64,000 nucleotides of DNA, taken from positions 41,292,001-41,356,000 of the forward strand of contig JBNRSN020000017.1 in NCBI GenBank assembly GCA_051313645.2, given 5' to 3'. Below are positions 49,811 through 56,578 of this stretch, one piece after another. The notes beneath the pieces are model-generated. The model was not told the origin of the DNA. It searched no databases and saw only the letters and a program-made list of their open reading frames with translations. Within the stretch, counting starts at the first letter, position 1; the number at the start of each line of letters is the position of its first letter. Both the position numbers and the translations under genes were made by a program. The stretch is from Centroscyllium fabricii (taxonomy: Eukaryota).

Positions 49811-52601
49811 TGTGCAAAACAAGATAGAACCTTAGTGTGGTTGAGGCACTCCTGGACTTTAAACCGCTAAAATCACTCAGCTCACCAAAATAAAGCTTCC
49901 TGTGGTTGTCCTATTAGGAGGACTAGCCTGCCATTAGGCCATTAGCTTGCAGTATTATTTGAAGGAGAGTGGGAAGAATTCCAGCCCCCACTGACAGTTT
50001 ACTTCTTTAGATCTTATCAACGAGCAGACTAGTTGGTTAATCATTAACAGGGTCAGGAAGTACTGCAGATCTGCTTGGCTTGGATATCTGATTGCCAAGT
50101 TTGCCACAGAGGATCAACTCAGTTCCAATCTCCCATTATCAAGCATATCACCTTGGAAGCAATGTGACTCGAGCGGGTCCCTACTTACCACCTACCCCAA
50201 GAAAACAATATCAAATTGGTCTTTGGACATCTGACAAATGCGGATTTGAGCCCTGCGCAGATGATCGCAAATAACTAATTCACCAATATGACCGTTTCCA
50301 ATGTCCAGGCTAACTATTCTTGTGGGTTTTCTAAACCAGATTGCCAATTTGTGTTGAGTTATGAGTTTTGGGCTTTAGATCCACATCTAATACGATGTGG
50401 GTTAAAACTGCTTAAAATTCATTTCACTTTAGGACCCTTAAGGCTGGCAGAGAGATGACACCTTTATCAGTTTGCAATGTATTCAAATTCAGGTCCCATC
50501 AGTGAATGAACAGAGGGCTTATCTACTTGGTAGCACTGTTAAAATGTATTGATATTTTTGTAATACATATGAAACCAGGATCAACATCCCTGTTTTGAAA
50601 AAAAAGTATGTTCTTCAACTAAAGGCCAGTGAAGTTGTAGGAATGTCGAGCTTTCAAGCAAGTTATATCTAGAAAATGGTATTTCACCAGTGACTACAAA
50701 ACGGTGCTAGCTAATCACAACGTACCTGCAAGAATAATCTTTTAACACTTCTCCAGCAGCTAACGTGCCACTTAACCACTATCATCCAGAGCAGAAGTGT
50801 GAAATTATTGGAGAAAATGTCTAAATTCCAGCAGGAAAAATCTGATTTACTAACAGGATTCTGGATGTGCCAGTAAGCACAGTAATGCAGTAATGCATGC
50901 ACATTTGGTGTGGAAGAATGGCCCCAAGTACTCAAAAAAAAAAGCACAAGACATGACAGGCAGGGTCAGCAATTGGGTAAATATTCATCTTCACCATCTG
51001 TACAGTAATTTGGTGGAGCAGATCACCCGCCCATAGTAGAACTCATCCAGTATTCATTTAATGTATTTCAGATTACTGCCCATGCAGTGAAGATCAAAAT
51101 TTACCCCAATACCGCTACAACATAGAGGACCTGGCAGGAACTCTGAAAGAGGATATACACATAAGAGTACAAAGATAAGGCTTACGTGCTACTGTAAAGT
51201 AACAAAGGACACATATGCACAAAGGACACAGATGCACATAATATCCTGACATCAGACAAATGTTAGGAAGGGTGTAGCAAGTAAGATATTAGAAGTGAAA
51301 ATAGCAGGGCTATGCAAATAAAATTATATACGTCAGGTCGTAATAGAAAATGCACATCAGGAAAGAAATCTGTCGGCCATATCACTATTTTTCAAACGCT
51401 ACTGCTCTTAGTTTCATATAAAAGCTACCACAGATTAGGAGGTCACAATCTACAACTGGTTTTGGACCCCCATACCTTAAGGAACTCATTCAATCAGCAG
51501 AAACAATAATTTATTTATTCAGGAGGGAGAGTTTAGAGGTTACTGCCACTGCCGAGATTGGAAGAGAGGACAGCACTAATACCATATTGATAATATATTC
51601 TATGATTTGCACAATATGTTAAATCATTGCGTCCATAAACATTGATTGTGGAAAAGCACATAATGGTGTTTGCAATGACATTACAGTACCCAAATGGCTA
51701 AGGGCAGTTATGTACTCATAATGTGCCAACTCTTATACCAATGATATGGTCCTCACCCCACTTAAAGCAGGCACCAGCACAGATGGACATGCAGGAGACC
51801 TAAATTTTGATGACGAGCAGGAGGCACAGAGGGAGGTGATGAGCATTAGTGAAGAAGGGATAGCAACAGTAGTTGTTGAGATGTCAACTGCTACAGGGTT
51901 CCAGGATCGCGAGTGCCCTACTCAGTTCTATCAGTAAATACAGCTTAGTGGGCCCGCTTTCAAATGAAGACTGGAACAGCACCCAGATTCTGACCAGGCA
52001 TTAATTGCCTCCTTACACATAATACTGTAAAGTGGTCTAGAACATAAGAACATAAATAAGAACATCAGAAGTAGGAGCAGGAGTAGGCCATACGGCTCCT
52101 CGGGCCTGCTCCGCCATTCAGTAGGATTATGGCTGATCCGAACTTAGACTCACGTCCACTTCCAGCAGTACACTAGAGACCCGGGTTCAAATCCAGCCTC
52201 AGGTACTATCTGTGTGGAGTTTGCACATTCTCCCCGTGTCTGCGTGGGTTTCCTCCGGGTGCTCCGGTTTCCTCCCACAGTCCAAAGATGTGCGGGTTAG
52301 GTTGATTGGCCATGATAAATTGACCCTCAGTGTTAGGGGGATTGAATATGTGGGGTTACGGGGATAGGGTGGGATATGTGTCGGTGCAGGCTCGATGGGG
52401 ATCGAGGGATATGGGGAGAAGGCAGGGATAGGGTACTGGGTTTGGATGATCAGCCATGATCTCATTGAATGGCGGAGCAGGCTCGAAGGGCCGAATGGCC
52501 TACTACTGCTCCTATTAACATAGAACATACAGCACTGTACAGGCTCTTGGGCCCTCAATGTAGTGCCGCCCTTATTCCGTCTCTGATTTTTCCTGTCCCC
52601 C

Positions 52602-55478
52602 CTACTGTTCCTTCCCTTCCATGTACCTGTCTATCATCCTTTTAAAAGCACCCAGACTGTCCGCATCCACTATTTCAGATGGTAGCCTATTCCATTCCCC
52701 GACCACTCTTTGTGTGAAGAACTTGCCCCTGCCATCCCGTCTGAATCTTCCTCCTTGAATCTTGTGCTCGTGTCCTCTTGTTGTCGTTCTTCCCGCCCGG
52801 GGAAACAGCCTTTGCACATTTACTCTGTCGATCCCCTTCATCATTTTGTACATCTCTATCAGGTCCCCCCTCTTCCTTCTTCGTTCCAGGGAGAAGAGTC
52901 CCAGTTCCCTTAACCGTTCCTCGTATGACTTTCCCCCCATTCCCGGCAGCATCCTGGTGAATCTCCTCTGCACTCTTTCCAGTGCCTCCACATCCCTCCT
53001 GTAGTACGGTGCCCAGAACTGCACACAGTACTCCACGTGTGGTCTCACCAGTGACCTGTACAACTGCAGCATGACCTCCCGGTTCTTAAACTCTATTCCC
53101 CTGTTGATGAAGGCCAATACACCATAGGCCTTTTTTACTGCTTTGTCCACCTGGGTGGCAGCCTTCAGTGATCTGTGTACATATACTCCCAGATCCCTTT
53201 GCTCCTCTGCTTCACTCAGGATCCTGCCGTTGACCCTATATTCCCTCTTCCTATTTGCCCTGCCGAAGTGCATCACCTCGCATTTCCCCGTGTTGAACTC
53301 CATTTGCCATTCTTCAGCCCAGCTCTGCATCCTGTCTATATCCCTCTGAATCGTTCTACTCCCTTCCTCCTCATCCACTACTCCCCCAATCTTTGTGTCA
53401 TCCGCAAATTTGCTGACCCACCCCTCAGCCCCCTCCTCCAAGTCATTGATGAAGATTACAAACAGTAGTGGCCCCAACACCGACCCCTGTGGTACCCCGC
53501 TGGTGACCGGTCTCCAGCTCGAGTATTGGCCTTCTACCACTACCCTCTGCTTCCTCTGAGCCAGCCAGTTCTCAATCCATCCCACCACTTTGCTGCTTAC
53601 CCCGCAACTCCTTACTTTCTTCATGAGCCGACCGTGCGGGACCTTGTCGAACGCCTTGCTGAAGTCCATATATATGACATCAACCGCCTTTCCCTCGTCC
53701 ACACTCTTGGTCACCTCTTCAAAGAATTCTATCAGGTTGGTCAGGCACGATTTACCCTTAACAAAACCGTGCTGACTGCTTCTGATTAATTTGCCCCTTT
53801 CTAGATGGTCGTAGATCTTGTCCCTCAGGACCCTTTCCATCATCTTTCCAACCACTGAGGTGAGGCTGACTGGTCTGTAGTTCCCTGGCACGTCCCTTTT
53901 CCCCTTTTTAAATATGGGAGCCACATTCGCCTCTCTCCAGTCCTCAGGGACTATCCCCGAGGATAGCGATGATCTAAAGATAGAGGTCAGTGGCTCTGCG
54001 ATTTCGTTCCTCGCCTCCCAGAGAATCCTTGGATATATCCCGTCTGGCCCAGGAGATTTGTCTACCTTTAGTTTCTCCAAAATATCTAATACCTCCCCCC
54101 TCTGGATATTTACTTCCCCCATCCTTTCCCCTTGTATCTTGAACTCCCCCTCTACTTTTTGTTCCCTCTCCCTTGTGAACACGGACGCAAAATATTTGTT
54201 TAGTGCTTCCCCAATTTCCTCTGGCTCCGTGCACGTTTCTCCCTTGCTGTCTTTGATCGGCCCTACTCTTACCCTAGTCATCCTTTTGTTTCTTACGTAC
54301 GCATAGAAAGCCTTAGGGTTCTCCTTTATCCTTCTCGCTAATGCCTTCTCGTGCCCTCCCTTTGCCTTCCTTAGCCCATTTTTCAGATTTTTCCTTGCTT
54401 CTTTGTACTCCCTTCCCGCCCCTTCTGTACTCTGTTTTCTCATTTTATCATATGCTTCCTTCTTCTTTTTTACTAATTGTTCTACCTCTTTCGTGATCCA
54501 TGGTTCTCTCATCTTACCCTTTTTTCCCATCCTACTCGGGACATGCTTATCCAGGGCTTTCAAAATTTTCTCCCTGAACACTCTCCATTTTTCTTCCGTT
54601 CCTCTCCCCGCAAGTTCCCGTTCCCAATTGGTGTTAGCTAAATCGTGCCTAACCCTGTCGTAATTTCCCCTCCCCCAGCTGTATACCTTACCCTGCCTCC
54701 TGCTCCTATCCTTCTCCATTACTATTGTGAACGTTACCGAATTGTGGTCACTGTCCCCAAAGTGCTCCCTTACCCCCAGTTCTACCACTTGGCCTGGTTC
54801 ATTTCCCAGAACCAGGTCCAACGTTGCTCCCCCCCTTGTTGGTTCCTCCACGTATTGTGTCAGGAAACCTTCCTGTATGCATTGTAGGAAAATCTCACCC
54901 TCTGCACTCTTTGATCTACCTAGATTCCAGTCTATATTAGGGAAATTGAAATCTCCCATTATAACTATCCTCTGTCCCCCACATCTTTCCTTTATTTGTC
55001 GCGCAATTTCCTCCTCCACCTCCCTGCTACTATTAGGTGGTCTATAGAAGACTGCCACTAACGTTACCGCCCCCTTCCTATTCCTAAGCTCCGCCCATAC
55101 TACCTCCGTTCGTGTGTCCCCCTCAAAGTTTTTTTCTGTAGCCGTCACGTTGTCCTTGACCAGCAGTGCTACTCCCCCACCGCGCTTTCCTCCCTCCCTG
55201 CTCCTCCAGAAGCTTCTGTATCCCGGGACCCCAAGCATCCAGTCCTGTCCCTGCTCCAGCCATGTCTCTGTAATGGCCACCACATCGTAGTCCCATGCCG
55301 CCATCCATGCCCCTAACTCCCCTGCCTTGTTCCTTATACTTCTTGCATTGAAGTAGGCGCATTTCAGACCCCTTTCCCTTCCCTGTGTCCTTGGTTCTCC
55401 CCCCTTTTCCTCGTTGCTCCCCGGTCTCCCCTGTGTTTCCCTGCCCGTTTCCCCATCCCCCTGGCCAGTTAGTTTAAA
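52602..55478 (-). CDS. CR1 ORF2, APE endonuclease + reverse transcriptase, uninterrupted (frame open to 55502)
   Basis: EN motifs GLKCAYFNARSI, ITETWL, YRPPN, MGDFN, LDLVL, SDHN; RT motifs NYRPVSLTS, DFSKAFD, GVPQGSVLGP, FADD. The first in-frame ATG (55304) lies inside the EN domain. Confidence 0.93.
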   Translation of the reverse strand, partial: FKLTGQGDGETGRETQGRPGSNEEKGGEPRTQGRERGLKCAYFNARSIRNKAGELGAWMAAWDYDVVAITETWLEQGQDWMLGVPGYRSFWRSREGGKRGGGVALLVKDNVTATEKNFEGDTRTEVVWAELRNRKGAVTLVAVFYRPPNSSREVEEEIARQIKERCGGQRIVIMGDFNFPNIDWNLGRSKSAEGEIFLQCIQEGFLTQYVEEPTRGGATLDLVLGNEPGQVVELGVREHFGDSDHNSVTFTIVMEKDRSRRQGKVYSWGRGNYDRVRHDLANTNWERELAGRGTEEKWRVFREKILKALDKHVPSRMGKKGKMREPWITKEVEQLVKKKKEAYDKMRKQSTEGAGREYKEARKNLKNGLRKAKGGHEKALARRIKENPKAFYAYVRNKRMTRVRVGPIKDSKGETCTEPEEIGEALNKYFASVFTREREQKVEGEFKIQGERMGEVNIQRGEVLDILEKLKVDKSPGPDGIYPRILWEARNEIAEPLTSIFRSSLSSGIVPEDWREANVAPIFKKGKRDVPGNYRPVSLTSVVGKMMERVLRDKIYDHLERGKLIRSSQHGFVKGKSCLTNLIEFFEEVTKSVDEGKAVDVIYMDFSKAFDKVPHGRLMKKVRSCGVSSKVVGWIENWLAQRKQRVVVEGQYSSWRPVTSGVPQGSVLGPLLFVIFINDLEEGAEGWVSKFADDTKIGGVVDEEEGSRTIQRDIDRMQSWAEEWQMEFNTGKCEVMHFGRANRKREYRVNGRILSEAEEQRDLGVYVHRSLKAATQVDKAVKKAYGVLAFINRGIEFKNREVMLQLYRSLVRPHVEYCVQFWAPYYRRDVEALERVQRRFTRMLPGMGGKSYEERLRELGLFSLERRRKRGDLIEMYKMMKGIDRVNVQRLFPRAGRTTTRGHEHKIQGGRFRRDGRGKFFTQRVVGEWNRLPSEIVDADSLGAFKRMIDRYMEGKEQ

Positions 55479-55602
55479 TCCCCCTTTATGGCTGAATCGA
55501 GTTTACCACCCAGAATGCTGATGCCCTTTCGGTTCAGGTGCAAGCCGTCCTCATCATACAGATCCCACCTTCCCCCGAACGATCCCCAATTGTCCACGAA
55601 CC
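55469..55602 (-). CDS. CR1 ORF1 C-terminal fragment (SGNH/GDSL esterase-like)
   Basis: Encodes FVDNWGSFGGRWDLYDEDGLHLNRKGISILGGKLDSAIKGDLN*, with the DGLHLN (DxxH) motif. Confidence 0.85.
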
Positions 55603-56578
55603 CCTATCTTCTATGTTTCTATGTTTCCCTGCCTGCTCTCCGTAACCCCTTATTCCCTTATTAGCTAGGAAACTGTTTATCTCCGTTTAAAATTTATTTA
55701 ATGTCACAGCTTCCACAGCTCTCTGAGGTAGCAAATTCCATAGATTTACTACCCTCTGAGTGAAGAAGTTTCTCCTCACCTCAGTTTTGAAAGGGCAGCC
55801 CCTTATTCTAAGATTATGCCCCCCAGTTCTAGTCTCACCCATCAGTGGAAATATCCTCACCGCATCCACCCGATGAAGCCCCCTCACAATCTTATATGTT
55901 TCGATAAGATCGCCTCTCATTCTTCTGAATTCCAATGAGTAGAGGCCCAACCTACTCAACCTTTCCTCATAAGCCAACCCCCTCATCTCAGTGGAAAAAT
56001 TCAACATCCAATCATTCACTGCCACCTCTTATATAAGTGATGCATTGGAGCATTGTGTTTTTGCATTTCAATCTGCAAATTATCTGCAATTGAGGCATTA
56101 TTTATGCAAGCAATTGATACAGTGGGAGCATTCATGAGAAATACTCGTATTTCTCATGAATGCTCCGACTGTTTCTATGAATGCTTCGGTATCCAAACTC
56201 GAATATACAATCAATACCAGCTTCAAATCTCTTGGAGAATTGCTCTAGACAACCATTCCAGAGGAATTCTTGTATCCCATGACTGCCCACTGTACTATGC
56301 TCACACATATGTGACATATGTGGAGTAGCACAAAAGCAGTCTGTTGGCACTTATAAATAAAACCAGAAAATACTGGAAAAGACACAGAAATTCCCTCAGC
56401 ATTTGAAAAAAGAAAAGCTTAATTAATATTTTGGCTGTTAACCCTTTCTCAGAACATTTGAAACCTTTTTTTTCTCAGTTCAAATGCTGATGATGTGGAG
56501 GTGCCGGTGTTGGACTGGGGTGGACAAATGTAAGAAGTCACACAACACCACGTTATAGTCCAACAGTTTTATTTGAAA

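What the first reader, a model, noticed from the sequence alone, without database searches (positions are those of the whole stretch)
55439..55505. Candidate -1 programmed ribosomal frameshift joining CR1 ORF1 to ORF2 (U_UUA_AAC followed by a G-quadruplex motif)
Seen in sequence: on the minus strand ORF1 ends GAT TTA AAC TAA (55480-55469), placing the heptamer T_TTA_AAC (55478-55472) in the correct X_XXY_YYZ phase. The ORF2 frame is -1 relative to ORF1 and is open from 55502 through this site (...FKLTGQGDG...GLKCAYFNARS...). It has no in-frame ATG, GTG or TTG until 55304, which is downstream of the first endonuclease motif. The nearby ATG at 55456 is out of frame. Ten nt after the heptamer is GGGGG-AT-GGGG-AAAC-GGG-CA-GGG (55461-55439), a canonical G4 pattern. 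Established: U_UUA_AAC is the coronavirus slippery site, RNA G4s can stimulate -1 frameshifting, and L1 ORF2 is made by re-initiation instead. Inference: this LINE may make an ORF1-ORF2 fusion in retrovirus style. ORF overlap in CR1 has been noted before, but I do not know of a demonstrated mechanism.
Basis: partly seen in the sequence, partly recalled or inferred. Interest (0 to 1): 0.85.

Follow-up and report, generated by a model that had tools for sequence, protein, structure and literature searches.

The report
Ribosome slip site in CR1 retrotransposons
Where the two genes of a common vertebrate jumping gene (a CR1 LINE) meet, distant families keep a seven-letter slippery sequence right before the first gene's stop codon, so the second gene is likely made when ribosomes slip back one letter, as retroviruses do.

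Summary
Observation confirmed at the stated coordinates. This copy is 5'-truncated (44 ORF1 codons left), but the junction is the family state: 61 of 61 family copies carry T_TTA_AAC plus stop, 59 have ORF2 in the -1 frame, 60 lack an AUG before the endonuclease motif. The heptamer is constrained at nucleotide level. Across 12 lineages all 44 other conserved ORF1 columns vary synonymously; TTA, AAC and the preceding T do not, and a distant lineage has G_GGA_AAC. Among 50%-identity ORF1 representatives, 53 of 59 ends in Asn fit X_XXA_AAC (LN, GN, KN) against 338 of 1700 internal tripeptides. A -1 programmed frameshift giving an ORF1-ORF2 fusion is the best reading (0.78); it is inferred, with no translation data. 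The G4 claim is weaker: canonical G4 in 1 of 12 lineages; what recurs is a G-run 8-12 nt downstream (11 of 12). Against: one young sublineage has ORF2 in frame 0 behind UGA with an AUG, and 8 of 14 lineages have some in-frame AUG. Ten paper searches found no CR1 frameshift report; this scan noted it before in two other genomes.

The parts
55469..55603 (-). 3' remnant of CR1 ORF1 (44 codons, end of the SGNH/GDSL esterase domain, ending GDLN) with stop TAA at 55471-55469; the copy is 5'-truncated
   Evidence: full-length family ORF1 (329 aa from ATG, L018) matches PF13472 and PDB 4c1b
55472..55478 (-). Slippery heptamer T_TTA_AAC in X_XXY_YYZ phase, directly before the ORF1 stop
   Evidence: 61 of 61 family copies; codon-invariant across lineages
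55457..55461 (-). G-run starting 10 nt after the heptamer; the positionally conserved candidate stimulator
   Evidence: G>=4 run at +8 to +12 in 11 of 12 lineages; chance per position 1-8%
55439..55461 (-). Canonical three-tier G4 pattern, specific to this family
   Evidence: canonical pattern in 1 of 12 lineages
52602..55502 (-). ORF2 frame (-1 to ORF1), 966 aa stop to stop; 956 aa lie after the predicted slip
54744..55355 (-). AP-like endonuclease domain; first motif YFNARS begins at 55355
   Evidence: PF03372 and PF14529
53232..53906 (-). Reverse transcriptase domain
   Evidence: PF00078
55302..55304 (-). First in-frame ATG of ORF2, downstream of the first EN motif
55454..55456 (-). ATG in the ORF1 frame after the stop, out of frame with ORF2
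55603..55607 (-). 5' copy of target-site duplication ATAGG
   Evidence: read
52511..52515 (-). 3' copy of target-site duplication ATAGG after the element's tail
   Evidence: read

Best explanation
This is the ORF1/ORF2 junction of a young CR1 LINE family, and it likely works as a -1 programmed ribosomal frameshift that makes an ORF1-ORF2 fusion protein. Shown: ORF1 ends in U_UUA_AAC plus stop, ORF2 continues one base back, and in this family no AUG lies before the first endonuclease motif. Inferred: most ribosomes stop and release ORF1p. A minority, with tRNA-Leu and tRNA-Asn on UUA and AAC, slip to UUU and AAA, pass the stop and read a charged linker into EN and RT. The product would be about 1285 aa (329 + 956), with junction ...KGDLN-LIGQGDG... 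in most copies, which would tie scarce EN-RT to the ORF1p oligomer as Gag-Pol is tied to Gag. The pause is inferred to come from the adjacent stop plus the G-run 10 nt downstream. That run may bind a protein or form a weak two-tier G4; the three-tier G4 is a feature of this family only. This particular copy lacks its 5' end and is a record of the signal, not a likely source of protein.
For: Family state: 27 of 27 junctions found with an EN-only query keep the heptamer and 25 the -1 phase. Overall 235 of 247 junctions ending at the expected place have X_XXY_YYZ and 207 are -1 (319 loci examined, 259 junctions found). Codon test on 12 lineages (mostly 34-70% aa identity between groups): 0 of 44 control columns are codon-invariant, while TTA is 11 of 11 and AAC 12 of 12. 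The base before TTA is T in 11 of 11 although its residue varies among D, G, V, S and H. Background: TTA 81 of 438 Leu codons, AAC 112 of 275 Asn codons, 7 distant in-frame heptamers in 3588 ORF1 codons. Covariation: L068 has CAG GGA AAC TAG with ORF2 in -1. ORF1 ends switch among xLN, QGN/SGN/AGN and SKN, at tail lengths of 24-39 aa. These are three of the four heptamers named most shifty on mammalian ribosomes (PMC5009743). Linker lengths from 92 to 242 nt in the 12 representatives all keep the -1 phase. Published consensuses from crocodilians, bowfin, frog, coelacanth, chimaera, sharks, rays and a lizard show the motif at the ORF1 end (PMC13343379 supplement).
Against: No translation data exist; the run search listed no RNA holder (not evidence either way). 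No stable hairpin or pseudoknot follows the site (z -1.8 to +1.9; z 0.76; no Rfam match), so the stimulator is unidentified. A young sublineage of family B has ORF2 in frame 0 behind UGA with an AUG at +18: 15 of 30 sampled copies, 10 of 12 with an intact 917-codon ORF2 and its own SNPs. 8 of 14 lineages have an in-frame AUG before the EN motif. A distant clade ends in VLN, yet copies with R or W at the stop read into EN in frame 0 (no DNA seen), so a terminal LN does not always mean -1 phase. 26 of 79 representative ORF1 ends fit no heptamer. G_GGA_AAC rests on one DNA locus and A_AAA_AAC on proteins only. The copies sampled are top-scoring, mostly young, and several lineages are related.
Confidence: 0.78

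Rival explanations
1. Termination-reinitiation: ribosomes stop at the ORF1 stop and restart on a nearby AUG or non-AUG codon, as for L1 (AUG-independent) and SART1 (UAAUG), giving a separate ORF2p.
For: Known for other LINEs (passages of PMC5009743; PMC3708506). Most family A copies read TAA-TT, placing AUU in the ORF2 frame in UAAUG-like geometry. Family B has an AUG 14-18 nt after the stop, and a sublineage that left the -1 phase still expanded.
Against: It does not predict an invariant upstream X_XXY_YYZ or its switch to G_GGA_AAC. No near-cognate codon or AUG position is shared among 14 lineages, and the TGGGA motif of calicivirus-type reinitiation (recalled) is missing or scattered. In 6 of 14 lineages an out-of-frame AUG lies within 15 nt of the stop. 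It may still be a second route in family B.
Confidence: 0.13
2. Protein-level or dual-coding constraint: ORF1p needs a terminal Leu-Asn and ORF2p an overlapping Phe-Lys, which together fix TTTAAAC without any slippage.
For: Terminal Asn is invariant in 29 of 29 aligned ORF1s. A distant clade keeps LN with ORF2 apparently in frame 0.
Against: The penultimate residue switches among L, G and K, always as X_XXA_AAC allows. Tail length varies from 24 to 39 aa. The solved L2-type esterase 4c1b aligns only to profile position 306 of 311. In several lineages the -1 frame opens only 22 nt before the stop, with no shared start codon.
Confidence: 0.05
3. The motif acts on RNA or DNA outside translation: a splice branch point (CUAAY overlaps the stop), transcriptional slippage, or a protein-binding site in the RNP.
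For: TAA lineages contain CTAAC or CTAAT. The G-run could be an RNA-binding-protein site. Splicing could not be tested without RNA runs.
Against: TAG and TGA lineages lose the branch-point pattern yet keep the heptamer, and the downstream sequence is purine-rich, not a pyrimidine tract. Slippage during copying would leave indels in the heptamer, but 61 of 61 family A copies are intact there. The strict codon phase to ORF1 points to translation.
Confidence: 0.04

Closest known systems
Retroviral gag-pol and corona/arterivirus ORF1a/1b -1 frameshift sites
   Same: X_XXY_YYZ heptamer in phase; U_UUA_AAC, G_GGA_AAC and A_AAA_AAC are named among the most shifty (PMC5009743 passage); structural protein upstream, RT downstream in the -1 frame.
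   Different: No hairpin or pseudoknot found; non-LTR element; Pfam shows no protease in ORF2, so the fusion would stay joined unless a host protease cuts it.
PRRSV nsp2 -2/-1 frameshift (protein-stimulated, C-rich motif)
   Same: Unstructured downstream RNA and a short homopolymer-rich motif at a 10-nt spacer (PMC4937337 passages).
   Different: G-rich, not C-rich; no binding protein known; only a positional likeness.
Dictyostelium TRE5-A and TRE3-A non-LTR retrotransposons
   Same: APE-RT LINEs stated to need a -1 frameshift for ORF2 (figure legend of review PMC5911963; primary papers not seen).
   Different: Different clade and a different ORF1; no signal described in the passage seen, and none compared here.
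L1 and SART1 ORF2 translation
   Same: Bicistronic LINE mRNA with rare ORF2 translation.
   Different: They reinitiate and make a separate ORF2p; here the frames overlap at a slippery site.
Synthetic G4-stimulated -1 frameshift (PMC3919603)
   Same: UUUAAAC followed by a G4 gives -1 frameshifting in reporters.
   Different: Optimum spacer 6-8 nt with short loops; here 10 nt and 8 loop bases, and canonical in 1 of 12 lineages.

Membership tests
CR1 LINE | ORF2 with AP endonuclease followed by reverse transcriptase | tested here: met
   PF03372, PF14529, PF00078
CR1 LINE | Esterase-type ORF1 with N-terminal Cys motif | tested here: met
   PF13472, 4c1b, in full-length family copy L018; homologs named from sharks and rays
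CR1 LINE | Placement in the CR1 clade by RT phylogeny | not tested
   No tree built; the junction resembles rows labelled CR1 in the PMC13343379 supplement
-1 programmed ribosomal frameshift site | X_XXY_YYZ heptamer in zero-frame phase | tested here: met
-1 programmed ribosomal frameshift site | -1 frame open from the heptamer into the downstream gene | tested here: met
   59 of 61 family A copies; 207 of 247 overall; exception in the family B sublineage
-1 programmed ribosomal frameshift site | Conservation beyond the encoded protein | tested here: met
-1 programmed ribosomal frameshift site | 3' stem-loop or pseudoknot 5-9 nt downstream | tested here: not met
-1 programmed ribosomal frameshift site | Transframe product shown | not testable with these tools
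   needs reporter, ribosome profiling or mass spectrometry
G4-stimulated frameshift | Conserved three-tier G4 at 6-8 nt spacer | tested here: not met
   canonical in 1 of 12 lineages, two-tier pattern in 9 of 12, spacer 10 nt
Protein-stimulated frameshift (arterivirus type) | Short unstructured motif at about 10 nt spacer | tested here: inconclusive
   G-run at +8 to +12 in 11 of 12 but missing in some published consensuses; may also reflect Gly codons of the linker
Protein-stimulated frameshift (arterivirus type) | Trans-acting protein binds the motif | not testable with these tools
   no binding data
SART1-type coupled stop-start | Overlapping UAAUG | tested here: not met
   TAATT in most family A copies, other bases elsewhere

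The most novel reading that the evidence does not exclude
A large part of the esterase-ORF1 CR1 group, from crustacean-like elements to sharks, crocodilians and lizards, has kept an ancestral -1 frameshift and makes its endonuclease-RT as an uncleaved Gag-Pol-like fusion. The slip is driven not by folded RNA but by a G-run at a 10-nt spacer bound by a protein, a mirror of the arterivirus C-rich signal. Lineages with UGA can convert to frame-0 readthrough or AUG restart.
Probability: 0.35. Interest if true: 0.9.

Novelty: new variant of a known kind. Interest (0 to 1): 0.75.

Why it matters
CR1 is the dominant retrotransposon of most vertebrates (abstract of PMC13343379), and how its ORF2 is translated is treated as unclear (PMC3708506). 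A conserved seven-base signal makes the question directly testable with one reporter. If true, LINE ORF2 is not always a separate protein, ORF2 annotations that begin at the first AUG cut into the endonuclease, and engineered CR1 assays need the native junction. It would also add a vertebrate-wide natural frameshift with no folded stimulator.

Tried and rejected
Copy-specific loss of an AUG: rejected. G4 as the general stimulator: rejected. Long-range pairing of the G-run: no partner shared among 12 lineages. Conserved near-cognate start or TGGGA motif: none. Rfam: no match. Random genome sampling was low-yield, 2 ORF1 ends in 200 kb. Viral contig scans found nothing. The GTDB scan gave 2 bacterial esterases, left out of the counts. 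The metagenome scan gave 3 loci, 2 with a junction. A search for longer fused proteins found none, which is weak evidence. Sequencing runs: no RNA holder listed; DNA contigs laid on the junction showed no joints and were not used as evidence. Three papers were not held, so the L1, SART1 and early CR1 primary papers were not read; the early chicken and turtle CR1 descriptions (recalled) may already discuss the overlap. Only the first 400 nt of each consensus in the PMC13343379 supplement could be searched, so it gives no true denominator. bioRxiv supplements were closed.

Full report
Observation. The element is a 3.1-kb, 5'-truncated CR1-type LINE on the minus strand with an intact EN-RT frame, 44 remaining ORF1 codons and a 5-bp target duplication. 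The host genome is 7.2 Gb. The nearest named ORF1 homologs are from sharks and rays, so a cartilaginous fish is inferred. TTTAAAC occurs 21 times in the window, so the motif had to be tested by conservation.

Family state. The junction query found 1259 candidates, 40 scored and 30 fetched; 29 anchored copies share the heptamer and a first in-frame ATG at codon 58, and the thirtieth shows the same junction. An EN-only query avoids selecting on the junction. Of its 29 other loci, 2 are truncated, 27 keep the heptamer and 25 keep the -1 phase. For family A in total: 61 of 61 heptamer, 59 of 61 in -1, 60 of 61 without an AUG before EN.

Other lineages. I located ORF1 ends by the esterase motif and ORF2 by the EN motif, independently of the heptamer, in loci found with divergent protein queries and a Pfam family. 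Of 319 loci, 259 gave a junction; in 247 ORF1 ended at the expected place, 235 of those had X_XXY_YYZ and 207 had ORF2 in -1. The 12 dropped rows have a displaced ORF1 stop. 22 of the 40 junctions not in -1 are the family B frame-0 copies. A later 20 loci gave 17 junctions, all with the heptamer, 16 in -1 (some repeat earlier places). Sampling favours young, top-scoring copies.

Codon test. One representative was taken for each of 10 lineages of this genome plus two metagenome loci. Codon identity at shared residues is 0.27-0.52 between the main groups (A, B, H, L067, L068 and the rest), near saturation; D/K/L/C and E/F/G are closer to one another and are not independent. None of 44 conserved control columns is codon-invariant. 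Leu(-2) is TTA in 11 of 11, Asn(-1) is AAC in 12 of 12, and the base before TTA is T in 11 of 11 while its residue varies (lineage C contributed only 31 codons). Backgrounds are 81 of 438 for TTA, 112 of 275 for AAC, and 7 distant in-frame heptamers in 3588 codons. L068 (33% identity) ends CAG GGA AAC TAG with ORF2 in -1.

Protein ends. 30 of 31 vertebrate-like and 10 of 14 L068-like ORF1 ends fit a slippery heptamer, but only 3 of 11 distant ones, against 641 of 18854 internal tripeptides (5 proteins cut before the end were dropped). In the 150 best 50%-identity representatives, 48 lacked the motif and 79 ended 22-32 aa after it. 53 of the 79 fit: 41 xLN, 10 xGN, 2 SKN. 53 of 59 ending in Asn fit, against 338 of 1700 internal xxN. 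The profile came from LN-ending proteins, which favours LN hits but not GN or KN. The L2-like DGLHP proteins do not fit, so the signal marks only part of the esterase-ORF1 group.

Published consensuses. In the supplement of PMC13343379 only the first 400 nt of each sequence were searchable. 17 of 23 hits for the heptamer plus TA lie, by eye, at an ORF1 end, as do 2 of 7 hits with TG. In a motif-independent search, all 5 rows showing both the esterase motif and the junction had it. Species are read from the row abbreviations (recalled): alligator, crocodile, bowfin, bullfrog, chimaera, coelacanth, rays, sharks, bearded dragon.

Stimulator. The canonical G4 is in 1 of 12 lineages and a two-tier pattern in 9 of 12. 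A run of four or more G starts 8-12 nt after the heptamer in 11 of 12, where chance per position is 1-8%. Some published consensuses lack the run. No hairpin stands out and no long-range partner is shared. Synthetic G4s give up to about 7% frameshifting at 6-8 nt spacers (PMC3919603). The PRRSV protein-bound motif works at 9-11 nt (PMC4937337). I rate a family-wide canonical G4 as unlikely and a protein-bound or weakly folded G-run as the more likely helper; this step is inference.

Evidence against. In family B, the one UGA lineage here, an AUG follows the stop by 14-18 nt. An upstream-only query gave 15 of 30 copies in frame 0, 13 in -1 and 2 in +1. The frame-0 group has its own synonymous SNPs, and 10 of 12 have a full ORF2. 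It either makes ORF2 by AUG restart or UGA readthrough, or is moved in trans by its -1 sister; I cannot tell which. In-frame AUGs occur before EN in 8 of 14 lineages at unrelated places. A distant clade ends VLN, and copies with R or W at the stop run into EN in frame 0. That shows LN without -1 phase, and also suggests that an esterase-EN fusion can exist.

Mechanism and rank. A -1 programmed frameshift giving an ORF1-ORF2 fusion explains the phase, the codon invariance and the switching among three shifty heptamers (0.78). Reinitiation explains the family B exception but not the heptamer (0.13). Protein constraint (0.05) and non-translational roles (0.04) fit poorly.

Literature. Ten searches listed no paper on frameshifting in CR1. 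I saw passages only of PMC5009743, PMC11835228, PMC13343379 (26, plus supplement), PMC3708506, PMC4255032, PMC4937337, PMC5911963, PMC5006619, PMC3919603 and PMC3905857. PMC5009743 names HeT-A gag frameshifting and says natural G4 use was not known in 2016; a 2026 paper on G4 and codon-repeat frameshifting appeared only as a listing. PMC5911963 states that TRE5-A and TRE3-A need a -1 frameshift, so a frameshifting LINE is not without precedent. Subscription papers, including the early CR1 descriptions, were not searchable. This scan noted the same idea in two other genomes; those notes are not independent evidence. Verdict: a real feature, likely a -1 frameshift signal, new variant of a known kind, interest 0.75.

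Noticed in passing
L162 (G000:C723:104783500-104789500): A Ty3/gypsy-like pol stretch (RT, RNase H, integrase motifs by eye) sits in one open frame with the esterase tail of a family B CR1 ORF1, probably a nested insertion.
   Followed up: no
L182-L211, L322-L333: Young CR1 sublineage with UGA, ORF2 in frame 0 and AUG at +18, intact ORF2 in 10 of 12 copies; a natural test of readthrough versus restart.
   Followed up: yes
P0036, P0037, P0040, P0063-P0098: Distant esterase-ORF1 clade ends VLN; 8 listed proteins (P0040 and 7 cluster members) have R or W at the stop position and continue in frame into EN, suggesting UGA readthrough or a fused ORF.
   Followed up: partly
L072, L095, L244, L212: Four related lineages have two overlapping slippery heptamers, G_GGU_UUA then U_UUA_AAC.
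   Followed up: no
P0148, P0168, P0183, P0217, P0232, P0239: Other ORF1 clades end with FF, GF or FL one to three codons before the stop, compatible with U-rich heptamers; no DNA seen.
   Followed up: no
L018:541-562: A C-rich stretch in the family A 5' region can pair with the junction G-run (-22.1 kcal/mol, third-best window); not found in other lineages.
   Followed up: partly
P0010, P0100: CR1-type ORF1 proteins carry the source names 40S ribosomal protein S24 and prefoldin subunit 5, likely misannotations.
   Followed up: no
window 7956-49685 and 55657-55986: 15 further tblastn segments match ORF2 (29-70% identity), all 3' fragments without an EN domain; one abuts this copy.
   Followed up: no
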